Assembly: GCA_004796365.1 (NCBI GenBank)
Contig: QZLE01000154.1
Coordinates: forward strand, 4,493 to 68,492
Source of the DNA: Gammaproteobacteria bacterium
GTDB lineage: Bacteria; Pseudomonadota; Gammaproteobacteria; QZLD01
Direction: 5' to 3'
DNA length: 64,000 bases
Made by a program: the position numbers and the translations under genes. The notes under the pieces are model-generated. The model was given only the letters and a program-made list of their open reading frames with translations, had not been told where the DNA came from and ran no database searches. The stretch's first letter is position 1. Every line of letters starts with the position of its first letter. Shown in pieces: positions 49,018 to 64,000 of this stretch.

Positions 49018-52000
49018 CTAAGATGGCTTAACCCCTTCGTTTAGCAGCTCTTCCAATTTTTTTCTTGGTACTGGCTTGCTGTAAAGAAACCCTTGAATAA
49101 AGTCGCAGCTGTTGTTCTTAAGGAAGTTAAGCTGCTCGTGAGTTTCCACACCTTCTGCTACAACCTGTAGTTGCAGCTTGTGCGCCATGGCAATAACAGC
49201 AGCGGTAATTGCCATGTCATTGCTGTCTTCCGGTATGTCACGCACAAATGATTTATCTACCTTAATAACATCAATCGGTAATTTCTTCAGATAACTTAGA
49301 GAGGAGTATCCGGTTCCAAAGTCGTCAATAGATATAGAAACACCAAACTGTTTCATCACGTGTAGTAGCTCAATTGTTTCGTCAATATCTTCCAGAAGCA
49401 TACTTTCCGTGATTTCCAGCTGCAGAAATTTAGCTGGCAGACCACTTTCGCTTAGAGCGCTTTCAATTATCTGCGGCAGGTTCGGATCCTGGAACTGGCG
49501 CACCGAAAGGTTGACTGCAACTTTGGGTTTAGATATTCCGGACTCGTGGATTTTGTTTATCTGTCTACACGCCTCTTTTATTATCATTTCTCCAAGTGGG
49601 ACGATAAGCCCGGTTTCTTCAGCTATATAGATGAACTGTTCTGGCGATATCAGCCCTTTTGATGGGTGATTCCAGCGCACTAGTGATTCAAATCCGGCAA
49701 TGGTTTGAGTGTTCATATTGATAATTGGCTGATAGTGGATTTCAAATTGTTGTTTTTCGATTGCCTGCCTTAGTTCGTTCTCCAAAAATAGTCGGCCTAG
49801 AGCCTCAATATTCATTTCACTGGTAAAGAATTGGTAGTTGTTTCTGCCAAGCTCTTTGGCGCGATACATAGCCAGGTCAGCATTTTTGATCATGGTTGTT
49901 GGGTCAGTGGTATCTGCCGGTGCAACGGTGATTCCGATACTAGTCGTTGAAATGATCTCCTGGTCGTTGATCAGCATCGGCTTTTCAAATTCCTGAATGA
50001 TCTTGCGTGCCATAGAACCAGCTGCTGAAGAGTTAGGGATATCAGTAAGCAAAATGGCAAATTCATCACCACCTAGTCGTGCTACGAAATCATCAGCAGA
50101 TACCGCTTCACGCAGCAGTTTTGCTGCGGATTTGAGCAGGACATCCCCTGCATCATGCCCCAGGGTATCATTGATACGTTTGAATTGGTCAAGGTCTAGA
50201 TAGAGAACCGCGATCTTTTTTTCTTCTTTTATACATTTTTCAATGTGCTGCTCAAGGCGTTCACGGAATAATCTGCGGTTTTCCAGTCCGGTAAGGGTGT
50301 CATAGTAGGAAAGCCTTTCGATCTCAAACTGAGTATTTTTCAATTCAGTAAGATCTTCACTAACAGTAACGTAGTGGGTTAGCTCACCTGCATCATCATG
50401 GATAGGTGAGATCGAAACCAGCTCCCAGTACTTTTCTCCGTTCTTTCTGGTGCTTTCAACTTCACCGTGCCATGACTTTCCTGAAGTTATTGTTTCTGAT
50501 AACTGATGGCTATTAGCAGGGGTAGATTCTGATTTGAATAGGTCTGCCTTATTGCCAAGGACTTCATCATAGGAATAACCGGTGATTTCGGTAAAGCGCT
50601 TATTTACATATTCAATGTCGCCTTCAATACTGGTTATCATTACTGAGCTTGCGCTTTGGTCGACTGCGCTGGATAGTTTTAGTAGCGACTGTTCATTTTG
50701 TTTGGTTTCGGTTATATCACTTCCAATGGTTACAAAACCGATCGGTTCTCCGCCTTTTTTCATCATGCCAATTCTATTGGACCACCATAGATTACCCCTT
50801 GGTGTTGGTAACGGTAAAATATAGGTATGCGGCCTGTCTGTTTCGCGAACCTTTTCCATGGTTTCCCGGAACCCTTCTCGGTGGTCTTCTGCAATATAAT
50901 TTAGTAGGTTGGTGCCGATTACCTGTTCTAAAGTAAAGCCATGACCTACACGGTTTGCAAAGATGATATTTCCCTCTAGGTCTAAAAGAGCAACATAGTC
51001 TGGCATATGAGCAATCAGGGAGCGCCATTTGATTTCTGAATCACGAAGGGCATTTTCTGCCTGAATTCTCTCCAGAACATGTCCGACGCTAGCAGCTGCT
51101 GCCCCTAAGATCTCTTTATCAAGATCATTTGCTGTGCTTGGAGTTTCAAAATAGCAGGTGATTGCCCCAAGCTTTTTATTTTTTACAGAATTTACCGGGC
51201 ATGACCATGCCGCACGCAGGTTAGCCTTTGATAATTTTTCGCGCCAGCTTAAATGGTGAGGGTGGATCAGAATATCCCCGGTGATATTAATTTTGTCTTC
51301 ATACAATGCGGTTGTAGTACACCCATGATGATCGCTTATTTTCAGGGACTGCATTGATCTGCAGAAAGACGGGTCGAGATTGGGAGCAGTCGATAACGAA
51401 ACACTGTCTTCTTTTGCGTCATAGGTATAAATTGCGGCACGAGATTGGGGAATAACACTTTCTATAGCATTGGTTATGATGGAAAAAATATCCTGCAGAG
51501 ATGCATCTTCAGAAATGGCCTCAAGTGCTTTTGCTTGAGCATCGGCAAGAATTTTCTGGTGGTGCTTTTCGGTAACATCCTTGGCGTTGACCACGATTCC
51601 CTGAACACCATGAATGTTGAGCATGTTCGTTGCGGTTGCTTCAAAATACAGGTAGGCACCATCTTTTTTTCTAAAGCGGAATTCAGGAATGCTTCTTTGG
51701 CTTCCTGTTGTCTCTGAAACGCCTTTGGATACACTAATAACTGCTTTTAAGTCATCTTTGTGGATAAAGTCGTGTGCGCACTTGCCAACCATTTCAGAAG
51801 CAATATAGCCACTGACCTTTTCTAATGAGGTGCTGATATATTGAAAATTGGCCTGGACATCAACAATTGATGTGAGGTCGCTGGCGTAAGCTGTAATTGC
51901 ATGTAGCTTTTCCTGGTCAATTGCGAATGCCCTGTTGCCATTGTTCTTGACAATGCGGGAGATATTGGCCAGGGCTCCGTCATAGCGACCATCAGCATCG

Positions 52001-53370
52001 AAAAATGGAGTAATATTGATTCTTACCGGAACGTTTACATTGTTTTTGGATATAAGGGTGATTTCAAACTCTTCATGAATCCCCATCTTTTGCTTTTTAA
52101 TCGCAGCAATACATTTACTTTTACTTTCTCTATCCATTAGTGAATAGATGTATCTGTCAGTAAGCTCATCAAGGTTACCGTATTCCAGAAGGTTTATCAT
52201 GTATGTGTTGGCAAATGTAGTAATACCCGATTTATCGATTGCCCACATCCCTTCTTGGTTTTCTGGCTTGTCAATTTCACCGGAATCCAGTTGTATAGTT
52301 ATATTTTCTTCTTTATTGGCTTCCAGTTCTTTATCTTGTCTGCGTACAATAAAAAGCAGGTATATCGTGAGCAATAGAGTAATAGTAATTCCAACAAATA
52401 ATATTACAAAAGGTACGTATTCTCCTCTTCTAGAAAAATACTCCATGTCGCGTGGGGTAAGTACTAGGCTCCACTTTCTGTCGGCAAACTTGATTAAATA
52501 AAATGTGTGTCTTTCTTGGGTAAGCTTATTGTAAGTTTTGTCCAGATCTCTCTCGCTAGCATGCTGAGCAAAACTGCTGGTATCGGAGGATTGATCGAAG
52601 ATTATTGCATTAATGTTATCTGCTCTGCTTCCAATGCTATGGGCGGTATTTGCTAAAAGTGTTTTGATATTAAATGTAGATCTGATTAACCCTAATAATT
52701 TCTTTTCATTCGAATCAGCAGAAATAAAACGATATACGGGTAGATAGGCTTCAATAAAACCATTGGGCATGGACCGGTTTTTTTTGTATGTTTGGGTAAT
52801 CAGGTTTTGTTTTTGGTCGTATTTTTGTAGGTCAACTCGGTCGCGAACAAAGTCTGTAGTTGGGTCTAGTCCCAGAATATTATTGAAATCATCAACATAT
52901 GATTCAGTGTAGTAGATTGGAAAATAACTGGTGCGCTTGCCAACTTTTATCAAATCTCCCTGGTTATCAATCTCTGTAATGCGAAAATCCGGAAATTCGA
53001 AATGGCGGGTTTCCATTTCAAAGCTTTTATAAAGGTGGTAGGGGACATGCGGTAGCCATTGAATATTTACTGTGCCAGTGTTGTTTCTTAATCCGCGCCC
53101 TACGAAGCTGTTAAATTCCCTTCTTCGCACTACGTCTGATGCTTCGTAAAGATTGCCAATATCATATATCTGTTCCAGGTGTGACTGAATCTCATTTCTA
53201 ATTACATTTGAGTATTGTTTTGCCGCATCATTAAAGCTGCTTTCGGCAAAGTCTTGTTTCCATCCCTGAGCCATAAAAAAACCGAGTATGGATATTATTG
53301 TTCCGAAAACAGCAGACCATATTGGCGAGCGATAAGATTTAGGTAGTAACTGGCGCGACTTGATTTCCAT
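49018..53370 (-). CDS. membrane sensor with CHASE, multiple PAS, GAF, GGDEF and EAL domains (c-di-GMP turnover protein)
   Basis: Two transmembrane segments flanking a roughly 300-aa periplasmic domain; RLGGDEF; EAL-domain motifs (ESLVRW, DDFGTGYSS). Confidence 0.85.
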   Translation of the reverse strand: MEIKSRQLLPKSYRSPIWSAVFGTIISILGFFMAQGWKQDFAESSFNDAAKQYSNVIRNEIQSHLEQIYDIGNLYEASDVVRRREFNSFVGRGLRNNTGTVNIQWLPHVPYHLYKSFEMETRHFEFPDFRITEIDNQGDLIKVGKRTSYFPIYYTESYVDDFNNILGLDPTTDFVRDRVDLQKYDQKQNLITQTYKKNRSMPNGFIEAYLPVYRFISADSNEKKLLGLIRSTFNIKTLLANTAHSIGSRADNINAIIFDQSSDTSSFAQHASERDLDKTYNKLTQERHTFYLIKFADRKWSLVLTPRDMEYFSRRGEYVPFVILFVGITITLLLTIYLLFIVRRQDKELEANKEENITIQLDSGEIDKPENQEGMWAIDKSGITTFANTYMINLLEYGNLDELTDRYIYSLMDRESKSKCIAAIKKQKMGIHEEFEITLISKNNVNVPVRINITPFFDADGRYDGALANISRIVKNNGNRAFAIDQEKLHAITAYASDLTSIVDVQANFQYISTSLEKVSGYIASEMVGKCAHDFIHKDDLKAVISVSKGVSETTGSQRSIPEFRFRKKDGAYLYFEATATNMLNIHGVQGIVVNAKDVTEKHHQKILADAQAKALEAISEDASLQDIFSIITNAIESVIPQSRAAIYTYDAKEDSVSLSTAPNLDPSFCRSMQSLKISDHHGCTTTALYEDKINITGDILIHPHHLSWREKLSKANLRAAWSCPVNSVKNKKLGAITCYFETPSTANDLDKEILGAAAASVGHVLERIQAENALRDSEIKWRSLIAHMPDYVALLDLEGNIIFANRVGHGFTLEQVIGTNLLNYIAEDHREGFRETMEKVRETDRPHTYILPLPTPRGNLWWSNRIGMMKKGGEPIGFVTIGSDITETKQNEQSLLKLSSAVDQSASSVMITSIEGDIEYVNKRFTEITGYSYDEVLGNKADLFKSESTPANSHQLSETITSGKSWHGEVESTRKNGEKYWELVSISPIHDDAGELTHYVTVSEDLTELKNTQFEIERLSYYDTLTGLENRRLFRERLEQHIEKCIKEEKKIAVLYLDLDQFKRINDTLGHDAGDVLLKSAAKLLREAVSADDFVARLGGDEFAILLTDIPNSSAAGSMARKIIQEFEKPMLINDQEIISTTSIGITVAPADTTDPTTMIKNADLAMYRAKELGRNNYQFFTSEMNIEALGRLFLENELRQAIEKQQFEIHYQPIINMNTQTIAGFESLVRWNHPSKGLISPEQFIYIAEETGLIVPLGEMIIKEACRQINKIHESGISKPKVAVNLSVRQFQDPNLPQIIESALSESGLPAKFLQLEITESMLLEDIDETIELLHVMKQFGVSISIDDFGTGYSSLSYLKKLPIDVIKVDKSFVRDIPEDSNDMAITAAVIAMAHKLQLQVVAEGVETHEQLNFLKNNSCDFIQGFLYSKPVPRKKLEELLNEGVKPS

Positions 53371-53690: not shown

Positions 53691-54098
53691 ATGCTTTTAG
53701 GGTTCATTATTCTACTTTTAGGTGCCTTTTTAGGCAATATTATATCTAGCTATTCAGGCCTGCCTGTTCCGGGTACGGTTTTTGGTATTCTATTGGTATT
53801 GGTATGCCTAGCCATAATTAAGAAGGTTCCACACAGCCTGAAGCTGGTAAGTGATGGCTTGCTAAAATACCTAGCTCTGTTTTATGTTCCTGCTGGGGTC
53901 GGGCTGGTTGCATATCTTGATCTTTTGGCTGCAGATTGGAGCAAGATTCTGGTAGCACTCTTGGTTAGCTCGGTGATCACAATTATTGTTGTTGCAATGA
54001 TAATGGATAAAATCACAAGTATTATAAATATAAAAAGCAGTAAAAATGAGTGCTCTGATTCAGCTGCTGATTCATACAACAATGGGAAAAGTGTATGA
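53691..54098 (+). CDS. lrgA: CidA/LrgA-family holin-like protein
   Basis: 135 aa with four transmembrane segments; precedes lrgB with an overlap. Confidence 0.75.
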   Translation: MLLGFIILLLGAFLGNIISSYSGLPVPGTVFGILLVLVCLAIIKKVPHSLKLVSDGLLKYLALFYVPAGVGLVAYLDLLAADWSKILVALLVSSVITIIVVAMIMDKITSIINIKSSKNECSDSAADSYNNGKSV

Positions 54099-54802
54099 GT
54101 CTTGAAATTATAGCAATAATCGAATCACCACTATTTGGAGTATTGCTAACGGTAGGTGTGTTTTTTCTGAGCCTGGAGATAAATAAGTTCTTTAAGGGGA
54201 CCCCTTTGCTGCACCCAGTAATGTTATCAATGGCAATAATTATCCCCTTGTTGTTATGGACCGGAATTCCATATGAAACTTATTTTAATGGTGCAAGTAT
54301 TATCCATTTTTTGTTGGGGCCGGCGACAGTTGCGCTTGCAGTGCCGTTATATGAAAACTTTGCCAGGGTGCGCCAGGTATTTTTACCATTAATGCTGGCA
54401 TGCATCATAGGCTCTACCATTGCTGCGACATCAGCTTGTGCGGTGGTATGGGGTTTGGGAGGAGATTTTAAGACTATTTTATCTATAGCCCCTAAAAGTG
54501 TAACCACTCCAATTGCGATGGGTATATCTGAGCAAATTGGAGGAATCCAGTCCTTGACAGCAGGGGTTGTCCTTATAACAGGTACCATCGGTTGTATAGT
54601 TTCCCCGGTTATCTTTAAGATTCTCAAAATCCGAGATGATGGCGCCAAAGGGTTTGCTTTAGGGGTGAGCTCTCATGGGTTCGGAACAGCGCAGGCACTG
54701 CAGATAAGTGCTGTTGCTGGTGCCTTTGCTGGCCTTGGCCTCGGTGTTACCGGGGTTTTAACGGCCTTTGGGTTGCCGTTGGTTTTATCGGTATTCTGGT
54801 GA
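54095..54802 (+). CDS. lrgB: LrgB/CidB-family membrane protein
   Basis: 235 aa polytopic protein coupled to lrgA. Confidence 0.75.
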   Translation: MSLEIIAIIESPLFGVLLTVGVFFLSLEINKFFKGTPLLHPVMLSMAIIIPLLLWTGIPYETYFNGASIIHFLLGPATVALAVPLYENFARVRQVFLPLMLACIIGSTIAATSACAVVWGLGGDFKTILSIAPKSVTTPIAMGISEQIGGIQSLTAGVVLITGTIGCIVSPVIFKILKIRDDGAKGFALGVSSHGFGTAQALQISAVAGAFAGLGLGVTGVLTAFGLPLVLSVFW

Positions 54803-54912: not shown

Positions 54913-56547
54913 ATGTCATCTTTGCTAAGAAATTTTTGGATAAAATATCGTATTTGGTTAATTGTGATTATTACAGCTGTTTCAATGCTTGTTGGGGCTG
55001 TGACTGTTGCAATGTCTGTTAGAGATCCGCTTGAATCAGGGAAACGTGATCTGATTAAGCAGTTGGTAGAGTCTGCATTTGCCATTGTAAAGCATAATCA
55101 TAGTCAAATTGGGGTCGACTTAACTGAAGAAGAAGCTAAGAAAAAGTCACTTGATGCTATAGCTAATATGAGGTTTGGAAAAGATGGCTACTTTTGGGTA
55201 AATAACATAAAAGGGGTGTTGGTTATGCACCCAATAAATCCAGAATTAAATGGTATTGATATCTCTCAATCAAAGGACGCTAATGGTAAGAAGCACATGC
55301 TTGAGATCATTGATGTGGCTCAGAAAAAAGGTGGAGGCACAGTCACATATGCTGTTCCAAAGCCTGATAGTGAAGAATCATATAATAAAATCGTTTATGT
55401 AAAGTATTTCAAAGATTGGGATTGGGTTATTGGTACTGGGTCTTATACAGATGATATAGATTCAGCTATCAGTGAACAATTATATGGGGCCGGTTTAGTA
55501 AATGGGGGGTTGTTAGTCGTTATTATTTTCCTTTCATGGGTTATTATTCGTAGCATTTCTCTTCCACTTGGCAATGCAGTTAAATCCATTGATAAAATAT
55601 CCCATGGCCAAATTGACTTAACTTATCGCCTTGATGAATTTGGCAACGATGAAATTTCGCAGGTAAATGTAAATCTAAATAATCTGCTGGGAACGGTAGG
55701 AGATGTAATAAACGAAGTTAATGCCTCATGCACCCAGTTAGGAGATACATCATTATCCTTAACCTCGGCCTCTGACAAAACCGATCAGGAAATGAATAGG
55801 CAGCTTCATGCTGTAGAGTATCTGGTGAGAGCCATGAATGAGATGCTTGATACAGTTAATAATGTTGCTAATAACGCAACAAGGACAGCAGAGTCTGCAA
55901 CTAGGGCGAATGAAGAGACTAAGGTTGGAAGGGATATTGTTGAAGTTACTCAGCAGTCAAGTAAAGATTTGCTTGAGCTGGTTGAGCAATCGATGGAGAA
56001 AGCAAAGCTATTGGCTGAAGGAACTAAGGATATTGGCACTGTTCTTGACGTGATAAATGGTGTGGCTGAACAAACAAATCTACTGGCGTTAAATGCAGCG
56101 ATTGAAGCAGCAAGAGCTGGTGACCAAGGGCGAGGTTTCTCTGTGGTGGCAGACGAGGTTAGGGTGTTGGCCCAGCGCACTCAAGATTCAACCACGCAGA
56201 TTATGGATATTATTGAGAGGTTGGAAGATGGCGCAGAAGGAACAATAAATAGCCTTGGAGAAATTGAACAAAAAGCATCTAAAACAGCAGAGGATTCAAT
56301 TAAGGCTAATGAGGCGCTTCACGGAATTTCTGACGCAGTATCATTGATAAGCGGCATGAATAATCAAATTGCGAGTGCAGCAGAAGAACAAAGCTTAACA
56401 TCTCAAGAGATTAGTCGTCACGTTAATGATATTGAGGAGATAACAAATAACACCAAGGCTAGCCTTGAGGAAACAAAGACAGCAGTGAGAGGCGTGGATC
56501 AGGTTACTGATAAGTTTAAATTACTAGTCAGTAAGTTTAAGTGCTAG
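54913..56547 (+). CDS. methyl-accepting chemotaxis protein with a periplasmic single-Cache domain
   Basis: TM - Cache ([16 protein letters not shown]) - TM - HAMP - MCP signalling domain ([28 protein letters not shown]). Confidence 0.9.
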
Positions 56548-57563: not shown

Positions 57564-60443
57564 TTAGCTCTTTGCTTTATCCATCCTGTTGCCAAAACCC
57601 TTTGTTTTTTCTGCAGGTATAAGATTCAGGGCCAATAGTTCATTATTTAGCGCATTGACCTCAGCCTTTGGATCCGGTGTCGAGTTTTTCATGCCATCAG
57701 CCAAATTATTGACCTGATACTCTCGTCTCTGTGAGGAATATTCTGCAGGAGTTTCAATGCCTGCCGCTATTTCTGCCTTGATGCACAGTAGCTCAGCAGC
57801 TTTGGTGTTTTGCTCTGATATCGCGGCAAGTTTTTCTTTGTCTAGAGTGGTTGCAAGGGTCAGGTTTTCTCTGAAGCGTTTGTTTAGGATATTATCTTGC
57901 TGTTTGTGTGTTGCTGTAGCTTGTTGCCAGTCAGATTCATATTCTTCATTATTGATTTCTTTCGTATCCAGCAGTGCAGATTCTATCTTGAGACATATAT
58001 CCAGTTTTTGTTGGAAAGCATCATCTTTTTGTTTTAATGCAGCATCTTTGATCGATTTTTCTTTATCAATCACTGTCTGGCAGGCTTTTTTGAATCTTTC
58101 ATAGCACTCTTTGTCAGCAGATTTCGGGATGTTGGTGATTTCTTTCCATTGTTGCTTTAATTCTTCAAGGTCATGCTTAGAAGTCGCGAACTCTTCATCA
58201 CTTGCTGATGCAATTTGTTCAATCTGTTCGGTGACCTGATTTTTTTTATGCAGGTTTTCATTACGTTCAGAGTTGTTGGCATCATAGATTTCCTGGCGCT
58301 TGGAAAACACCTGGTCGCAAACTGTACGAAAATCAGACCATATCTTTTGCTCGTCTTTTCTAAAGGTTGCTCCTACTTCTTTCCAGTCCTTTTGTAACAT
58401 CTTAATGCGATCAGCTGCCTGAAATACATCTTCAATATTTAGTATTTCTTGTGCTTGTTCAATGATCTCGAGCTTTTTAGCTTTGTTGTCGTTGCGGTAA
58501 TCATTAAGTTTTGTTTTGATGGCGTCCTGTGCGGTGCGGTATCTGTCGGTAATTGTTCTGGTAATCTTGCGGTCGGTCGGGCCGCATTTTTTCCAGGCGT
58601 CAATCTTGCTGGAAAGGAAGCTGTCTACTTTTTTCCAGTCCGGATTTCCCCAATCAGTATCTGCAAAGAACTGTTCCATATCGCGGCATACACCTTCGCG
58701 CTGCTGCTGATTTATTTGGCGCAATTGGGACTGCTGTTCATAAAATGTTTTGCAAGGCGCGAATGCTTTGTCGGCGGCACCGCTGAATCTTTCCCATAGC
58801 TCCTGGGATGAATTTGGTTCTGATGCCCCTAGTTTTTTCCACTGCTCCTGCAATAATTTAATATTTTCTGCCAGTTGTTCCGGATCAGTATCTGCGCTGG
58901 ATTCAGCTAGCGCCTCCATCTCTTTGCACAGTTCTTCTTTTTTAGGGGTGGTTGCCCATCCTTTCCAGTCTTGTAACTGTGAAACCCTAGCAGACAAGGC
59001 GTTAAACCTGTTTTTGGTTTTGCCATCAATAGATGGGATATTGTTGATAAGTTTACGCGCTTTTTTCAGTAGGTTATTGGCATCACTTACTGACCCTGCA
59101 TCCAGTTCTTTTTCCAGAGAATTAAGGATTGATGGAAGCTCTTTGCGCTGTGATTCCAAGTTCTTTTCTTGCAGGTCAAATTTTTTCTTCAGAGCTTCCA
59201 GTTTGTTATTAACGTCCTGTAGGTGCTGCGGAGGTTTGGCCCAAAGAGGGTCAATCTGAAATGCTTTGCCTTTGCGCTGAATCTCCTTGAATTTCCCTGC
59301 CGGGATAAAGTTCTCCTCCATAAAGGTATCAATGCGCTTGATGAGTTCAAGAGATTCGTCTTTGGTCTCTAAAGCTTTTGTAAGCCCATCTGTTAGCCTG
59401 ATGGTCTGTTTTCTAATACTGTAAAATTCGTTGCAAAGCTTGTCTTCCTCTTTTGTTGGAAGTTGGCCGATAAGTTTCCACGCTGTTTCGCTATCGCTAA
59501 GGATTTTGTTACTATCTTTTTGAAAATCTTCAGCTGCCGATGCTTCGGTTTGTAGTTTTTGCAGATTTTCTTTCAGTTTTGCCAGAATTTTTTGTTTCTC
59601 TTCACGAAACTGTTCCTGCTGTTTAAGTTCTACCTGACGCTTTTCTTCAATCTCTTTATGCTTTTGCAGGATATGTTGGCAGCTTTGATTTGCCGTTTGG
59701 TATTTTTGCTCCAATTCGGTGTCTTGCTCATAGTCAATTTCATTCCATTGCTGGGTCAGGCGTTGTAGCTCTGAGTTGAACTTTTTGTTATACCCTTGCT
59801 GCTCAAGTGTTTCCAGTGAAAGGCAGATAGCCTTTCGTGCTTTCTCTATCTCTTTGGGTTTTTCAAGCTCAGCGATAATGGTTTCAAGTTTTTCTTTTGC
59901 GGTTTTTGTAACCCTTTTGTTTTTTGTACGGCACTTTTTTATTATGCGCTCCAGTGCAGCTTGCTCTGTTATCTTCTCAAGTGCGGCAAGTTGTAAATCC
60001 AGGTTGCTATTGTCAATTACCAGTGACTCCAGGATGGATAACCGTGTAATGCGTGGTAGCAATGCCATTTTGATTTTTGAATCATCGGTTTTTTTCAAGA
60101 TGGTTTCGATATCTGTTATATCTTCAAAGCTGTTCGCGCGATCTATTCTATTTTCATGGGTTAAGCCGCAGTCAATTATTCCGGAAATCATCTGAATCAT
60201 GCGTTCTTTTGCCAGTTTTTTAGCATCAATGTTTGTTTCATTGCCAATTACTGTTTCCAGTTTGTCGATATTGTTCAGGCGCTTGATTGCAAGTTTGCGG
60301 ATCTCTATTTCGTTGTCATTAATCAATTCCGTAATTATATTGTCAAAATCGGAATCTTTGGGGTCAAGAGCAAGTAATGCCTGTTTACGAACTTCGGCAT
60401 TGCGGTGTTGCCATTTAGGTTTTTTGAACTTTGAAAATAACAT
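57564..60443 (-). CDS. DUF349-repeat giant coiled-coil protein (959 aa)
   Basis: At least 10 degenerate repeats of about 70 aa with W-x-x-G/K...W signatures (QEQWKKLGA, IDAWKKCGP, QKDWKEVGA, KQQWKEITN, ...). Confidence 0.65.
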   Translation of the reverse strand: MLFSKFKKPKWQHRNAEVRKQALLALDPKDSDFDNIITELINDNEIEIRKLAIKRLNNIDKLETVIGNETNIDAKKLAKERMIQMISGIIDCGLTHENRIDRANSFEDITDIETILKKTDDSKIKMALLPRITRLSILESLVIDNSNLDLQLAALEKITEQAALERIIKKCRTKNKRVTKTAKEKLETIIAELEKPKEIEKARKAICLSLETLEQQGYNKKFNSELQRLTQQWNEIDYEQDTELEQKYQTANQSCQHILQKHKEIEEKRQVELKQQEQFREEKQKILAKLKENLQKLQTEASAAEDFQKDSNKILSDSETAWKLIGQLPTKEEDKLCNEFYSIRKQTIRLTDGLTKALETKDESLELIKRIDTFMEENFIPAGKFKEIQRKGKAFQIDPLWAKPPQHLQDVNNKLEALKKKFDLQEKNLESQRKELPSILNSLEKELDAGSVSDANNLLKKARKLINNIPSIDGKTKNRFNALSARVSQLQDWKGWATTPKKEELCKEMEALAESSADTDPEQLAENIKLLQEQWKKLGASEPNSSQELWERFSGAADKAFAPCKTFYEQQSQLRQINQQQREGVCRDMEQFFADTDWGNPDWKKVDSFLSSKIDAWKKCGPTDRKITRTITDRYRTAQDAIKTKLNDYRNDNKAKKLEIIEQAQEILNIEDVFQAADRIKMLQKDWKEVGATFRKDEQKIWSDFRTVCDQVFSKRQEIYDANNSERNENLHKKNQVTEQIEQIASASDEEFATSKHDLEELKQQWKEITNIPKSADKECYERFKKACQTVIDKEKSIKDAALKQKDDAFQQKLDICLKIESALLDTKEINNEEYESDWQQATATHKQQDNILNKRFRENLTLATTLDKEKLAAISEQNTKAAELLCIKAEIAAGIETPAEYSSQRREYQVNNLADGMKNSTPDPKAEVNALNNELLALNLIPAEKTKGFGNRMDKAKS

Positions 60444-60640: not shown

Positions 60641-61024
60641 ATGCAGCAATTAATCTCTATTGGTATTGGTGGCGCTATCGGCGCGATCTTGCGTTATCTG
60701 GTTTCCGGTGGCGTGCATACCTTTATGGGAAAGGATTTTCCGTACGGTACCCTGAGTGTAAATGTGATTGGTAGCTTTGTTGTGGGAGTATTGTTTGTCA
60801 TTTTCGCGACTAATGATACGATTCCAGAATTACTCAAAATTTCTGTTTTAGTTGGTATGTTGGGAGCATTTACAACGTTCTCTACATTTTCTTTGGATAC
60901 CTTTAAGCTGATTGAAACAGCTGCATTTTCCAAGGCGGGAGTCAATATTGCGATTAATGTTGTCGCAAGTATTGCTGCAACATGGTTTGGAATAGTTTGT
61001 TCACGGGTTGTTGTTCAGGGTTGA
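60641..61024 (+). CDS. crcB: fluoride channel CrcB/Fluc
   Basis: 127 aa, four transmembrane segments, GxxGAxLR motif. Confidence 0.85.
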   Translation: MQQLISIGIGGAIGAILRYLVSGGVHTFMGKDFPYGTLSVNVIGSFVVGVLFVIFATNDTIPELLKISVLVGMLGAFTTFSTFSLDTFKLIETAAFSKAGVNIAINVVASIAATWFGIVCSRVVVQG

Positions 61025-61067: not shown

Positions 61068-62342
61068 ATGTTAGATGCAAAATTTTTAAGAAATAATATT
61101 GAAGAGGTGGCGCAAAAAGTTGGGCGTCGTGGGTTTGTACTTGATGTTGCTGAGCTTGCTGATTTGGAAGATCAAAGAAAAGGTATTCAGGTTGAAACTC
61201 AGGAGTTACAGAATAAACGCAAGACTATTTCCAAAGAAATTGGCAAGGTAAAAGGATCTGGAGGTGATGCCCAGCCATTACTGGATGAAGTGGCACAGAT
61301 TGCCCTAAGGCTGGACGAGTCTTCGCAGCAGTTAAATGACCTTCAGGACAAGATAAACGATATTCAGCTTGGTATACCTAATATTCTCAGTGATGAGGTA
61401 CCTGATGGAAATGATGAGGAAGACAATGTAGAGGTGCGTAGCTGGGGCACTCCGCGCCAATTTGACTTCGACCCTAAAGATCATGCAGATCTTGGTGTTG
61501 ACAGTGGCATGATAGACTTTGAGTCATCTGCGAAGATTACTGGCTCCAGGTTTGTGGTAATGAAGTCTGGTATTGCCAAACTACATAGAGCCCTGACCCA
61601 GTTTATGCTTGATACCCACGTAGAAGATCATGGGTATGAGGAAATATATGTCCCGTATATGGTTAATGCGGATTCTCTATACGGAACAGGGCAGCTGCCT
61701 AAGTTTGAGGAAGACTTGTTTGCCCTTAGTGGTGACAAAAAATACTACTTGATCCCAACGGCAGAGGTGCCGGTAACCAATATGGTTCGTGATGAAATCA
61801 TATCGCCAAAGCATTTGCCGATAAAGTATGTTTGCCACACACCATGTTTTAGATCGGAGGCCGGTTCAGCTGGAAAAGATGTGCGCGGTATGATACGCCA
61901 GCACCAGTTTGAAAAGGTTGAGCTTGTGAATGTAGTCCACCCGGATGAATCGGATCAAGCGCTTGAAGACCTGACCGCATGTGCAGAAAAAATTCTGCAG
62001 AAGCTGGACCTGCCATACAGAACCGTGATTCTTTGTGCTGGGGATACTGGGTTCTCATCCTCTAAGACTTATGACATAGAGGTATGGCTGCCAGGTGCAA
62101 ATGCCTATCGTGAGATTTCATCCTGCAGTAATTTTCAGGATTTCCAGGCGCGCAGATTACAGGCACGCTGGAGAAACCCTGAAACCGGCAAGCCTGAACT
62201 GGTGCACACCTTGAATGGTTCCGGGCTAGCAGTTGGGCGTACCCTGATCGCAGTTATGGAAAACTACCAGCAGGCGGATGGTAGCATCAAGGTGCCTGAA
62301 GCGCTGAAACGTTACATAACCGAAGATGTTATAAAGTTATAA
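61068..62342 (+). CDS. serS: seryl-tRNA synthetase
   Basis: N-terminal coiled-coil arm and class II core (motifs 2 and 3: [22 protein letters not shown]). Confidence 0.95.
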
Positions 62343-62756
62343 TTCTTTTGTGGTAGGCTGGGTTTGTGTCTGCAATCCAGCCAGCCAGCAATAAGAAGTG
62401 CTGCATCCCGCGACTTCAAGATCAATAGAAGCAAAGCCTCTGATCCTGCCTATCAAAATATCACCATATAACCCTGAATTAATGCTGACTGCAATTGCAT
62501 GTTAGCCTGTAAGATATTGATTACACCCACTTAAGATTTGTCCGCTATTTTATATTTAATCCATCCGTATAATGGGGTATAACAAAGAGAAGTAAAATAA
62601 TAAGATGTAAATAATTATAAAGATAACTATACAGAGGGAACTTAACAAAGGCATCAGTATCAATAGTGGTGTATTGAATAAAAATGGTGTGATTTGCGCT
62701 TCCCCCACACAAAGATGAATGAGCAGGATAAAAAATAAGGACACAGGAGAGGACAC

Positions 62757-63053
62757 ATGGGAATCTCAACTTTAGTATCAGATGACAAAAAGAAGCTTAC
62801 GTTTCAGGTTTCAGGAAATATGGATTTTAGTATCGTCCGTCCACTATTTGGAACGGCGAATGATTATGCATCTGATGAGACAACGTTTATTATCAATTTT
62901 GACAAGCAGACAAACGTTCATGACTCCGGGCTTGGTGCAATTCTGCATTTGGCTGAGATTAAACATGAGTCAATTAGGTTGGAAAATTGCCCGAAAGAGG
63001 TTTCTGCAAAGATAGAAAATTCCAGTTTAAAAGAGCTGGTGTATATAGCTTAG
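62757..63053 (+). CDS. STAS-domain (anti-sigma-factor-antagonist-like) protein
   Basis: 98 aa; ...FDKQTNVHDSGLGAILHLAE... matches the STAS core DSSGLG motif. Confidence 0.5.
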   Translation: MGISTLVSDDKKKLTFQVSGNMDFSIVRPLFGTANDYASDETTFIINFDKQTNVHDSGLGAILHLAEIKHESIRLENCPKEVSAKIENSSLKELVYIA

Positions 63054-63249
63054 TAATATAAAAAAAAGATTAACACGTCCATACCCGCATTAGCGGGAAT
63101 AAAGGATAATTTTCTTTAATTATCCTTTTCCATTTACAAAACATCTAAGCAGTAATATCCTAGCCGCATCATATATATTTAATTATTAATAATTAAGCAC
63201 TTATTTAAAGCAGTATTTGCTGCTGCTAGTTATTGCGGATGCATCTGAA

Positions 63250-64000
63250 ATGGTTGAGCTATCAGGTTATACCAATTTAAAAGAGATAATGCTATCGAAT
63301 GGGTTTTCAGTTTTTCGGGCTCAAAGAGAAAGTGATAATCTAAATGTTTTTATAAAGGTGTTAGATGCTGGTCGCGTAACTATTGAGATAGCAAATCAAT
63401 TTAATAATGAGTTTAAACGCCTTTCAGATTTTGATTTTGAAGGCGTTATTAAACCATTGGCTATGGAAAGTATCGGGGAATATAAGGTTATGGTCTTTGA
63501 AGATCATGGCTTTGCCTTTTTGAATGAGGCAATGCTCGATACTGAGATCAATATTGAAGAAGCATTGGTAATTGCTAATAACCTTATTGTTGCTATTGGG
63601 GAGTTGCATTCATGGCAAATAGTTCACGGCAAAATCTGTCCTCGTGATATTCTCTATGATCCTGAAACTAAAAATGTCATGCTGTTTGGTGCTGGTATAT
63701 TTGATACTTCCTTTTTTTGGGAAAAAGATCCTGAGTGGAAAAAACAATATTTATATGTATCCCCTGAAGTAAAGCAGCTGACAAATCATAGGCCTGATTA
63801 CCGGACCGATTATTATTCTTTTGGTGTGATTGTTCACGAGTTACTCGCAGGTTTTCTTCCGTTTTATGATGATTGTATTGATGAATATACATCTCAGAAT
63901 ATTCTAGCAGAATCCTTGTTTTCAGCGCAAAATAGACCAGCTAAAGTACAAATTCCTAATGTAATTGCTGATATTGTCAGAAAGTTACTTGCGCTGGAAC
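63250..64000 (+). CDS. Hanks-type Ser/Thr protein kinase domain protein (3' partial; runs off the window)
   Basis: Hand translation MVELSGYTNLKEIMLSNGFSVFRAQ...VIKPL...HGKICPRDILYD...DYYSFGVIVHELLAGFLPF. Catalytic-loop and subdomain IX signatures are present. Not in the ORF track because no stop is reached. Confidence 0.6.
   Translation, partial: MVELSGYTNLKEIMLSNGFSVFRAQRESDNLNVFIKVLDAGRVTIEIANQFNNEFKRLSDFDFEGVIKPLAMESIGEYKVMVFEDHGFAFLNEAMLDTEINIEEALVIANNLIVAIGELHSWQIVHGKICPRDILYDPETKNVMLFGAGIFDTSFFWEKDPEWKKQYLYVSPEVKQLTNHRPDYRTDYYSFGVIVHELLAGFLPFYDDCIDEYTSQNILAESLFSAQNRPAKVQIPNVIADIVRKLLALE

What the first reader, a model, noticed from the sequence alone, without database searches (positions are those of the whole stretch)
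62757..64000. STAS-domain protein immediately upstream of a Hanks-type Ser/Thr kinase gene that continues beyond the window
A 98-aa STAS/anti-sigma-antagonist-like ORF is followed, after a 196-nt gap, by an ORF whose first 250 aa carry eukaryotic-like kinase signatures (HGKICPRDILYD catalytic loop, DYYSFGVIVHELL). Classical partner-switching uses GHKL kinases, not Hanks kinases, so this pairing is unusual. N-terminal Hanks kinase domains in gammaproteobacteria often head very large multidomain sensor proteins. The locus is flanked by AT-rich, non-coding-looking DNA.
Basis: partly seen in the sequence, partly recalled or inferred. Interest (0 to 1): 0.55.

Follow-up and report, generated by a model that had tools for sequence, protein, structure and literature searches.

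The report
Dead kinase paired with unphosphorylatable STAS
The two genes are real and travel together in related bacteria. However, the "kinase" has lost its catalytic residues and the small STAS protein has lost its phosphorylation site, so this is probably a phosphorylation-free binding pair and not a new kinase-substrate switch.

Summary
A 98-aa ORF (62757-63053) is under purifying selection and folds like SpoIIAA/RsbV (STAS). After a 196-nt spacer, a kinase-fold ORF starts at 63250 and runs off the window.

- The full protein (P0002, from the same contig) is about 1,294 aa: kinase-like domain, AAA_16 P-loop ATPase, then about 700 aa of helical region. It stops exactly where its 1,800-2,100-aa relatives continue into GAF/His-kinase outputs.
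- It belongs to the already described CP1 (COG3899-linked) kinase/pseudokinase family.
- In this clade HRD is HGK, the catalytic-loop Asn is Asp and DFG is GAG. All 114 other relatives checked keep HKD..N and DF[GS].
- The STAS protein has Asp where SpoIIAA has its phospho-Ser (HDSGLG versus DSSGLG).
- The closest Ser-bearing STAS relatives sit next to classical GHKL kinase or PP2C partners.

The pair recurs at 35-42% identity in a different gene neighbourhood. It is absent from six output-bearing relatives, so the linkage looks functional.

Best reading: a pseudokinase/STAND scaffold that binds a non-phosphorylatable STAS adaptor. The binding mechanism is inferred, not shown. This is a new variant of known kinds and of moderate interest.

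The parts
62508..62525 (+). Palindromic block TGTAA-N8-TTACA in the serS-STAS spacer. It is conserved among orthologous loci and is a candidate regulator-binding site for the STAS gene.
   Evidence: The alignment of window, L001, L023 and L004 shows an invariant TGTAAGATATT.ATTACA island in an otherwise diverged spacer. The motif is not enriched elsewhere in the window.
62566..62574 (+). Conserved -10-like element CGTATAATG, the candidate STAS promoter. It would give a 5' leader of roughly 180 nt.
   Evidence: GTATAAT is invariant in all four orthologous spacers. The simple promoter scan did not call it, because no -35 element is evident.
62757..63053 (+). Gene for a 98-aa single-domain STAS protein (SpoIIAA/RsbV/HsbA fold). 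Asp56 in the HDSGLG motif (62919-62936) sits at the canonical phospho-Ser position.
   Evidence: ORF and Shine-Dalgarno site. Pfam STAS E=0.011. AF2 model with Foldseek hits to SpoIIAA/RsbV. Profile alignment to SpoIIAA MDSSGLG. dN/dS 0.07-0.14. Identical protein P0121 is annotated D6B28_09350.
63084..63128 (+). Two adjacent hairpins just after the STAS stop codon: CCCGC-ATTA-GCGGG and an 11-bp AT-rich stem. They may act as a partial terminator. They are not conserved in orthologues.
   Evidence: Fold of -19.5 kcal/mol over a 45-nt window. The consensus terminator scan did not call it. It is absent from the aligned orthologous spacers.
63131..63164 (+). Conserved promoter-like island CATTTACAAAA..GCAGTAATATCCTAGC (-35 TTTACA, 17 nt, -10 TATCCT), upstream of the kinase-like gene.
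   Evidence: The promoter scan finds 63133..63161. It is the only long invariant block in the STAS-kinase spacer across window, L001, L023 and L004.
63250..64000 (+). First 250 codons of a roughly 1,294-aa CP1-family protein: the pseudokinase domain. Motif coordinates: beta3 Lys in VFIKVL at 63346-63363; alphaC Glu at 63403-63420; degenerate catalytic loop HGKICPRD at 63625-63648; degenerate DFG (FGAGIF) at 63685-63702; SPE at 63754-63771. The rest of the protein (AAA_16 ATPase plus helical region) lies beyond the window.
   Evidence: Translation. Pkinase 56.6 bits. Identity to P0002 residues 13-262. Full gene on the same contig, L002 10001-13921. Motif states. Coordinates. Orthologues start at MVEL/MIEL/MVDL, which favours ATG 63250 over the annotated start 12 codons upstream.

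Best explanation
The end of the window holds a conserved two-gene cytoplasmic signalling module.

Gene 1 encodes a 98-aa STAS protein. It is a diverged relative of HsbA/SpoIIAA-type anti-sigma-factor antagonists, and its phospho-acceptor Ser is replaced by Asp. It therefore cannot be switched by phosphorylation at that site and may mimic the phosphorylated state.

Gene 2 encodes a protein of about 1,294 aa from the CP1 / COG3899-linked kinase family. From N to C terminus it has:
- a kinase-fold domain that has lost the catalytic Asp, the catalytic-loop Asn, the DFG Asp and the Gly-rich loop (a pseudokinase that keeps the Lys-Glu pair);
- an AAA_16 P-loop NTPase with an intact Walker A and a Walker B changed from DD to DN;
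- about 700 aa of helical region.
It has none of the GAF / His-kinase / GGDEF / HD outputs that its relatives carry.

Proposed mechanism (inferred, not shown): the pseudokinase domain is a docking surface, not an enzyme. The nucleotide state or oligomeric state of the STAND-like ATPase, set by whatever the helical region senses, controls binding and release of the STAS protein. The STAS protein then acts in trans as the output adaptor that the protein lacks in cis. Each gene appears to have its own promoter.

Shown here: both folds, the residue losses, the domain architecture, and conservation of the pairing.
Inferred: physical interaction, direction of signalling, and the downstream target.
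For: Folds:
- STAS.
- Kinase.

Architecture:
- Pkinase + AAA_16, with only a faint TPR match afterwards, in the 72%-identical orthologue and in the window's own full-length protein.
- The protein aligns over 100% of its length at 30-32% identity to the N-terminal 1,300 aa of 1,800-2,100-aa Pkinase-AAA_16-GAF-HisKA-HATPase_c proteins.
- It ends just before their GAF domain (consensus; C terminus).
- No transmembrane segment is predicted.

Residue losses are specific to this clade:
- H[GKR]K..D and [GC]AG in all six orthologues, against HKD..N and DF[GS] in 114 relatives.
- Walker B LDNFH against LDDLQW in the relatives.

STAS acceptor site:
- Asp56 is invariant in the six orthologues and in the nearest relatives P0127, P0128, P0129, P0135 and P0152.
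- It aligns with SpoIIAA Ser58.

Linkage:
- The order serS-STAS-pseudokinase is found in window/L002, L001, L004 and L023.
- Every STAS cluster shares a contig length with a kinase cluster.
- The pair recurs in L006 (STAS 37% identical, kinase-like 26%; motifs IKD..M / TLG).
- It also recurs in L005, in a different neighbourhood (response regulator-GGDEF-EAL, His kinase, response regulator, methyltransferase). There STAS is 42% identical and the kinase-like protein 35%, with motifs HGC..Q / GLG.
- Six output-bearing relatives (L012-L016, L022) have no STAS neighbour.
- Ser-bearing STAS relatives (P0131, P0132) sit next to HATPase_c_2 or response regulator-SpoIIE-HATPase_c_2 genes instead.
- The STAS subfamily is rare: 28 representatives at E<=1e-3 among 1.84 billion proteins.
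Against: - No interaction data exist, and no co-fold could be run.
- Only one truly independent neighbourhood (L005) supports linkage beyond shared synteny. Its kinase-like gene is cut at residue 1,012, so whether it lacks output domains is unknown.
- The genes are 190-290 nt apart in every locus, with a promoter-like island between them. They may not be co-transcribed.
- For L012 and L013 the upstream flank is under 1 kb, so absence of a STAS gene is weakly tested there.
- Some kinases catalyse with non-canonical residues, so sequence alone cannot prove inactivity.
- Ser57, next to Asp56, remains a conceivable acceptor.
Confidence: 0.5

Rival explanations
1. One reading: an active Hanks-type Ser/Thr kinase phosphorylates the adjacent STAS protein. 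This would be a partner-switching module that uses a eukaryotic-like kinase in place of a GHKL kinase.
For: - The kinase fold is clear, and the beta3 Lys, alphaC Glu, SPE and subdomain IX Asp are kept.
- Ser57 is present next to Asp56.
- A Hanks kinase phosphorylating a STAS protein has a precedent: PknD and Rv0516c (PMC1847690).
- The pairing is conserved.
Against: - The catalytic Asp (HRD to HGK), the catalytic-loop Asn (to Asp), the DFG Asp (to Gly) and the Gly-rich loop are all missing. These losses are confined to the STAS-linked clades, while 114 relatives keep the residues.
- The canonical acceptor Ser is Asp.
- No PP2C phosphatase gene lies in the conserved neighbourhood.
Confidence: 0.07
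2. The two genes are only neighbours. The STAS protein works with other partners, for example the HsbR-like system encoded about 10 kb downstream, or an unknown target. The CP1 pseudokinase-ATPase acts independently.
For: - The spacer is 190-290 nt, with a conserved promoter-like island and, in the window, hairpins between the genes.
- Most evidence for the pairing comes from genomes that share the whole serS-to-ftsK synteny block.
- The genome has a separate HsbA-like STAS gene after cheR-cheD-cheB.
Against: - The pair persists at 35-42% identity in a different neighbourhood (L005).
- Identity falls in step for both partners across loci: STAS 85/70/42/37% and kinase-like 72/57/35/26%.
- In every context long enough to judge, an Asp-type STAS gene has a CP1 gene immediately downstream on the same strand.
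- Ser-type relatives have GHKL or PP2C partners instead.
Confidence: 0.25
3. The pair is an anti-phage or conflict system: a STAND NTPase with an N-terminal kinase-like effector and a small accessory protein.
For: - The best NCBIfam and PADLOC hits for the kinase-like domain are defence kinases (MADS6, PD-T4-6, MkoA).
- An AAA_16 domain followed by helical repeats is a STAND-like layout.
Against: - Those hits cover only the generic kinase domain (residues about 20-290) and score far below the family cut-offs, for example 48.8 against 460 bits.
- The STAS protein has no PADLOC hit.
- The locus lies in a stable housekeeping block (crcB, serS, infA, ate, aat, trxB, ftsK) with no mobile-element genes, and it is conserved across genomes at 57-76% identity.
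- The closest relatives are sensor kinases.
Confidence: 0.05

Closest known systems
CP1 bacterial Ser/Thr (pseudo)kinase family, linked to the COG3899 predicted ATPase (reviewed in PMC12599244, Biochem Soc Trans 2025)
   Same: A cytoplasmic kinase-fold domain fused to a COG3899/AAA_16 ATPase. The family is found in cyanobacteria and proteobacteria. About 40% of members have one or more degraded catalytic motifs. The window protein fits this description: Pkinase + AAA_16, no transmembrane segment, degraded motifs.
   Different: This clade has lost three catalytic or metal-binding residues at once. It also has a DD-to-DN Walker B, lacks the GAF/PAS/FhlA-type additional domains, and is paired with a STAS gene. 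The review does not mention STAS (0 occurrences).
Dual Ser/Thr-kinase / His-kinase sensor proteins of cyanobacteria (Pkinase-AAA_16-GAF-HisKA-HATPase_c, with or without a receiver; annotated as 'trifunctional serine/threonine-protein kinase/ATP-binding protein/sensor histidine kinase'; from my own knowledge, the HstK/Pkn41-type proteins of Anabaena)
   Same: 30-32% identity over the entire 1,294 aa, in the same domain order, with shared motifs (KLYGRE, GIGKT/S, GNP[LF]F, DRYQS.WG).
   Different: The relatives keep HKD..N and DF[GS] and carry GAF plus His-kinase, GGDEF or HD outputs. The window protein stops before the GAF domain. No STAS neighbour was found in the six relatives checked.
SpoIIAA / RsbV / HsbA anti-sigma-factor antagonists (classical partner-switching STAS proteins)
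   Same: Same fold (TM 0.75) and size, the same ..SGLG.. helix-start motif and a single-domain architecture. The nearest Ser-type sequence relatives are HsbA-like proteins encoded after cheR-cheD-cheB and before a response regulator-SpoIIE-HATPase_c_2 gene (HsbA biology in PMC5085249 and PMC6482189).
   Different: The phospho-Ser is replaced by Asp. No GHKL kinase or PP2C phosphatase gene is adjacent. The neighbour is a pseudokinase-ATPase.
M. tuberculosis PknD and Rv0516c (a Hanks kinase that phosphorylates an anti-anti-sigma STAS homologue; PMC1847690)
   Same: A Hanks-fold protein functionally associated with a STAS protein.
   Different: PknD is an active receptor kinase and Rv0516c is phosphorylated. 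Here both the catalytic residues and the canonical acceptor are missing.

Membership tests
STAS domain (Pfam PF01740 / SpoIIAA-like fold) | Sequence match to the family model above the curated threshold | tested here: inconclusive
   The window protein scores 16 bits against a cut-off of 22.6 (E=0.011). However, 24 of 26 aligned family members hit STAS/STAS_2 at E<=0.01 (best 1e-15). The family profile hits PDB STAS proteins at 2e-12 to 6e-7.
STAS domain (Pfam PF01740 / SpoIIAA-like fold) | Alpha/beta fold of SpoIIAA: a central beta-sheet flanked by helices | tested here: met
   The AF2 model has pLDDT 80.2. Its top 16 Foldseek PDB hits are all SpoIIAA, RsbV, RsbS or other anti-sigma antagonists (prob 1.00, TMq up to 0.75).
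Phospho-regulated anti-sigma-factor antagonist (SpoIIAA/RsbV/HsbA type) | Conserved phosphorylatable Ser at the start of helix 2 (Ser58 in SpoIIAA, motif DSSGLG) | tested here: not met
   The ungapped profile alignment places Asp56 (HDSGLG) at the Ser58 position. It is invariant in the six orthologues.
Phospho-regulated anti-sigma-factor antagonist (SpoIIAA/RsbV/HsbA type) | Adjacent GHKL anti-sigma kinase (HATPase_c_2) and/or PP2C (SpoIIE) phosphatase gene | tested here: not met
   The neighbours are serS and the CP1 protein. There is no HATPase_c_2 or SpoIIE gene in the 10 kb on either side. Ser-type relatives do have such neighbours.
Hanks-type (eukaryotic-like) Ser/Thr protein kinase, catalytically competent | Protein-kinase fold / Pkinase model above threshold | tested here: met
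   PF00069 scores 56.6 bits against 31.7. The AF2 model is closest to S. aureus PknB (E 7e-14).
Hanks-type (eukaryotic-like) Ser/Thr protein kinase, catalytically competent | Catalytic Asp of HRD and Asn of the catalytic loop (HRDxKxxN) | tested here: not met
   HGKICPRD aligns to HRDIKPQN of PknB 4eqm: Asp to Lys, Lys to Cys, Asn to Asp. The same holds in all six orthologues.
Hanks-type (eukaryotic-like) Ser/Thr protein kinase, catalytically competent | Mg-binding Asp of the DFG motif | tested here: not met
   GAG aligns to DFG.
Hanks-type (eukaryotic-like) Ser/Thr protein kinase, catalytically competent | Gly-rich loop GxGxxG | tested here: not met
   The loop is LSNGFSVFRA. It is also degenerate in the whole CP1-like family.
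Hanks-type (eukaryotic-like) Ser/Thr protein kinase, catalytically competent | Beta3 Lys (VAIK) and alphaC Glu | tested here: met
   VFIKVL Lys36 and NNEFKR Glu54 align with the PknB Lys and Glu.
Hanks-type (eukaryotic-like) Ser/Thr protein kinase, catalytically competent | Phosphotransfer activity | not testable with these tools
   This needs a biochemical assay.
CP1 (pseudo)kinase family (PMC12599244) | Kinase-like domain physically fused to a COG3899-type predicted ATPase | tested here: met
   AAA_16 (PF13191) follows the Pkinase domain, with E=1e-27 in the L001 orthologue. It is also precomputed for P0002. The equivalence of COG3899 and AAA_16 rests on my own knowledge.
CP1 (pseudo)kinase family (PMC12599244) | No transmembrane region (cytosolic) | tested here: met
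   The maximum Kyte-Doolittle 19-residue mean is 1.22, below the usual 1.6 threshold.
CP1 (pseudo)kinase family (PMC12599244) | Placement in the CP1 clade of the published kinome phylogeny | not tested
   The published CP1 reference sequences or HMM were not available. The assignment rests on architecture and on homology to cyanobacterial and proteobacterial relatives.
Dual Ser/Thr-kinase / sensor His-kinase proteins (Pkinase-AAA_16-GAF-HisKA-HATPase_c) | Homology across the Pkinase-AAA_16-helical core | tested here: met
   30-32% identity over 98-100% of the query (E down to 1e-199).
Dual Ser/Thr-kinase / sensor His-kinase proteins (Pkinase-AAA_16-GAF-HisKA-HATPase_c) | C-terminal GAF and His-kinase (or other enzymatic) output | tested here: not met
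   P0001-P0006 and L001 have only Pkinase and AAA_16. The gene ends 55 nt before a convergent Bax1-I gene.
STAND-type P-loop NTPase | Walker A GxxxxGK[ST] and Walker B hhhhDD/E | tested here: inconclusive
   Walker A GDPGIGKTS is intact. Walker B is LFLDNF, with the second acidic residue changed to Asn, in the serS-linked clade. It is canonical (FFDDL) in L005.
Known anti-phage defence systems (PADLOC-DB) | Full-length match to a defence-system protein model | tested here: not met
   Only the generic kinase domain matches. The STAS protein has no hit.

The most novel reading that the evidence does not exclude
The pair is a 'fossilised' kinase-substrate couple that has become a new kind of partner switch without phosphorylation. 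A STAS protein is locked in a phosphomimetic (Asp) state. It is held or released by a dead kinase domain whose grip is set by the nucleotide cycle of the attached STAND-like ATPase. In this way the STAS protein replaces, in trans, the GAF/His-kinase output that the rest of the family carries in cis.
Probability: 0.25. Interest if true: 0.6.

Novelty: new variant of a known kind. Interest (0 to 1): 0.45.

Why it matters
Bacterial pseudokinases of the CP1 family have been catalogued, but none has a known partner or function (PMC12599244). A conserved, dedicated small partner gives a concrete and testable handle: a binding assay with two soluble proteins. It could show how an output-less pseudokinase/STAND protein signals.

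It would also extend STAS partner-switching to a version in which neither the kinase nor the phospho-site is functional.

The finding is limited to a small clade of uncultured, AT-rich Gammaproteobacteria. It rests on comparative genomics only.

Tried and rejected
- Word-index protein search with the 250-aa window fragment found nothing, although its own protein is in the database. The full-length orthologue from L001 had to be used instead.
- A metagenome scan with the STAS alignment found no relatives.
- A metagenome scan with the kinase-clade alignment returned only five distant, output-bearing relatives. None had a STAS gene.
- Contexts for the STAS relatives P0129, P0135 and P0152 sit on contigs of about 1 kb or less and are uninformative.
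- Rfam search of 62300-63300 gave no credible RNA family; the best E-value was 0.67.
- PADLOC and NCBIfam defence hits were rejected as generic kinase-domain matches far below the cut-offs.
- PDB sequence searches with the full-length protein and with its profile found only kinase domains. Nothing matched the C-terminal 1,000 aa.
- The palindrome upstream of the STAS gene is not repeated in the window above chance.
- A cluster-member look-up gave no taxonomy finer than 'Gammaproteobacteria bacterium'.
- The MlaB-type STAS reading was considered and rejected. MlaB is a weaker structural and sequence match than SpoIIAA/RsbV, and no mla genes are adjacent.
- P0130 (1,779-aa repeat protein) and P0151 were treated as spurious hits of the STAS profile.
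Full report
**1. What is at the coordinates**

The window ends with three co-directional genes after crcB (60641-61024):
- serS (61068-62342);
- a 98-aa ORF (62757-63053), preceded by a strong Shine-Dalgarno sequence;
- an ORF that starts at ATG 63250 and runs off the window.

The 98-aa ORF is a real gene. Against orthologues, most substitutions fall at third codon positions, and dN/dS is 0.07-0.14.

**2. The small protein is a STAS protein without the phospho-acceptor**

Pfam alone is below threshold (PF01740, 16 bits against 22.6). Other evidence settles the fold:
- An AlphaFold2 model built on six orthologues has pLDDT 80 and a beta-alpha order typical of SpoIIAA.
- Its best PDB matches are SpoIIAA and RsbV (TM 0.75, probability 1.00).
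- A profile of the six orthologues, searched against 1.84 billion representative proteins, found only 28 relatives at E<=1e-3. Nearly all are proteins of about 100 aa.
- 24 of 26 aligned members hit Pfam STAS.
- The profile matches TM1442, SpoIIAA and RsbV in the PDB.

In these alignments the consensus l-D-S-S-G-L-G lies in register with SpoIIAA M-D-S58-S-G-L-G. The window protein reads H-D56-S-G-L-G with no gap from the preceding strand. Asp therefore occupies the position of the phosphorylated Ser. (That Ser58 is the SpoIIAA phospho-site is established knowledge.) Asp56 is invariant in the six orthologues and in the next-closest relatives P0127, P0128, P0129, P0135 and P0152.

More distant relatives keep DSSGLG and sit in classical contexts:
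- P0131 lies beside a HATPase_c_2 gene.
- P0132 lies after cheR-cheD-cheB and before a response regulator-SpoIIE-HATPase_c_2 gene and an Hpt gene. This is the HsbA/HsbR/HptB arrangement (PMC5085249, PMC6482189).

The window's own genome has such an HsbA-like gene about 10 kb beyond the window end.

**3. The large protein**

A genome scan found a 72%-identical orthologue (L001) with a 1,294-aa product. A search seeded with it recovered the window's own protein, P0002 (THB70485.1, 'MAG: hypothetical protein D6B28_09355 [Gammaproteobacteria bacterium]'). Its residues 13-262 are identical to the window fragment. Orthologues all begin MVEL/MIEL/MVDL, so ATG 63250 is the likely start and the protein has about 1,294 aa.

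Domains are Pkinase (residues about 20-256) and AAA_16 (about 297-485, E=1e-27), followed by about 800 aa with only a faint TPR_12 match. No transmembrane segment is predicted.

The protein aligns over its whole length, at 30-32% identity, to the first 1,300 residues of more than 100 proteins of 1,800-2,100 aa. These are mainly cyanobacterial proteins that continue into GAF, HisKA, HATPase_c and receiver domains, or into GGDEF or HD domains. The window clade (P0001-P0006 and L001, 57-76% identical to each other) stops at the ..YPELINSEVF motif, just before the GAF domain of the relatives. A convergent Bax1-I gene follows 55 nt later.

The protein is large, but it lacks the output half.

A recent review describes exactly this kind of protein as the CP1 family. 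CP1 proteins are cytosolic kinase-like domains that are always fused to a COG3899 predicted ATPase. They occur in cyanobacteria and proteobacteria, about 40% are pseudokinases, and no function is known (PMC12599244).

**4. It is a pseudokinase**

The HMMER alignment to S. aureus PknB (4eqm) gives the following:

| Motif | PknB | Window protein | Change |
|---|---|---|---|
| Catalytic loop | VHRDIKPQNIL | VHGKICPRDIL | catalytic Asp to Lys; Asn to Asp |
| DFG region | IFDFGI | LFGAGI | DFG to GAG |
| Beta3 Lys (VAIK) | aligned | VFIKVL | kept |
| AlphaC Glu | aligned | NNEFKR | kept |

An alignment of 120 family members shows that these losses are confined to the six-member clade (H[GKR]K..D and [GC]AG). 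All 114 others keep HKD..N and DF[GS]. The Gly-rich loop is degenerate family-wide. The AF2 model of the fragment (pLDDT 81) is a normal bilobal kinase fold, closest to PknB/Stk1.

In the ATPase, Walker A is intact. Walker B is LDNFH in place of the family's LDDLQW in the serS-linked clade. By analogy with Walker-B mutants, this suggests nucleotide binding with impaired hydrolysis. That point is inference.

**5. Is the pairing meaningful?**

The order crcB-serS-STAS-pseudokinase-Bax1-I-infA-ate-aat-trxB-ftsK is kept in the window contig (L002), L001, L004 and L023. Every STAS cluster shares a contig length with a kinase cluster. This could be plain synteny, but two more diverged cases argue for function:
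- In L006 a 37%-identical STAS gene follows serS and precedes a 26%-identical kinase-like gene with motifs IKD..M / TLG.
- In L005 a 42%-identical STAS gene lies 191 nt upstream of a 35%-identical Pkinase-AAA_16 gene with motifs HGC..Q / GLG. The neighbourhood is different: response regulator-PAS-GGDEF-EAL, His kinase, response regulator, and a TRAM/methyltransferase gene.

Identities of the two partners fall in parallel across loci.

Conversely, five output-bearing relatives from metagenomes (L012-L016) and the closest non-clade relative (P0007, L022) have no STAS ORF detectable with the family HMM. Two of these have under 1 kb of upstream flank.

So the Asp-type STAS goes with degenerate CP1 proteins, and these lack outputs wherever the full gene could be seen. 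The Ser-type STAS goes with GHKL or PP2C partners.

**6. Transcription**

The two genes are always 190-290 nt apart. The STAS-kinase spacer is poorly conserved except for one island, CATTTACAAAA..GCAGTAATAT[CG]CT. It reads as TTTACA-17 nt-TAT[CG]CT and was also picked up by the promoter scan. In the window, two hairpins follow the STAS stop codon, but they are not conserved.

The serS-STAS spacer holds a conserved palindrome TGTAA-N8-TTACA and a conserved GTATAAT. The genes therefore probably have separate promoters. The STAS gene has a much stronger ribosome-binding site than the large gene. No Rfam family matches.

**7. Explanation and rivals**

The best-supported reading is a dedicated pair in which the pseudokinase domain serves as a docking module for a non-phosphorylatable, possibly phosphomimetic, STAS protein. 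The STAND-like ATPase and helical region provide the regulated switch. The STAS protein serves as the trans-acting output that the protein lacks in cis.

The folds, residue states, architecture and co-occurrence are shown here. Binding, direction of signalling and target are inferred.

Rivals:
Atypical catalysis and Ser57 keep it from being excluded.
- Mere adjacency remains possible, because only one independent neighbourhood is available.
- A defence-system reading is unlikely. The locus sits in a housekeeping setting and only generic kinase matches were found.

**8. Novelty**

Both protein kinds are known: STAS, and CP1 pseudokinase with a COG3899 ATPase. A Hanks kinase acting on a STAS protein also has a precedent (PMC1847690). 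What appears undescribed is the conserved pairing of an Asp-substituted STAS with an output-less, triply degenerate CP1 protein. Literature searches found nothing, and the CP1 review does not mention STAS. I rate it a new variant of a known kind with moderate interest. It offers a tractable entry point to an uncharacterised pseudokinase family, but it occurs in a narrow uncultured clade and has no experimental support.

Noticed in passing
window 62508-62525 and 62566-62574: A conserved palindrome TGTAAGATATTGATTACA and a conserved GTATAAT lie in the otherwise diverged serS-STAS spacer. They are shared by four orthologous loci. They probably represent an operator plus a -10 element for the STAS gene, with a leader of about 180 nt.
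   Followed up: partly
window 63131-63164: The only conserved island in the STAS-kinase spacer is CATTTACAAAA..GCAGTAATATCCTAGC (TTTACA-17-TATCCT). This suggests that the large gene has its own promoter.
   Followed up: partly
L002 20936-23921 (same contig, about 7-10 kb beyond the window end): A cheR-cheD-cheB cluster is followed by a second, canonical STAS gene (MAIKSSVSEDQLTLTIFVEGNFDFNLHKEFRDA...). It resembles HsbA-type antagonists. The genome therefore also has a classical partner-switching module.
   Followed up: partly
window 62400-64000 versus 61200-62300: The STAS and kinase-like genes have 31-38% GC, against 45-52% for serS. This may be a trace of foreign origin, and the closest full-length relatives are cyanobacterial. 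Alternatively it may reflect weaker codon selection.
   Followed up: no
window 57564-60443 (-): A 959-aa protein made of five DUF349 repeats is conserved in the same position in all orthologous loci. Its function is unknown.
   Followed up: no
window 49018-53370 (-), 53691-54802 (+), 54913-56547 (+): Three features lie upstream of the region studied: a 1,450-aa CHASE-PAS-GAF multidomain sensor, an LrgA/LrgB pair, and a dCache-HAMP methyl-accepting chemotaxis protein. Domain calls come from the contig annotation.
   Followed up: no
L015 3874-6213: An AT-rich metagenome contig encodes another CP1-type protein with independently degraded motifs (HRN in place of HRD/HKD, GFS in place of DFG). It has no STAS neighbour. 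This shows that catalytic decay has occurred more than once in the family.
   Followed up: no
The word-index homology search with the 250-aa window fragment returned no hit, even though the identical full-length protein P0002 is in that database. A negative from that tool with a fragment query should not be trusted.
   Followed up: yes
P0130 (1,779 aa) and P0151 (1,214 aa), hits: These long repeat proteins were picked up by the STAS profile through many short stretches. They look like compositional or repeat artefacts, not STAS domains.
   Followed up: partly
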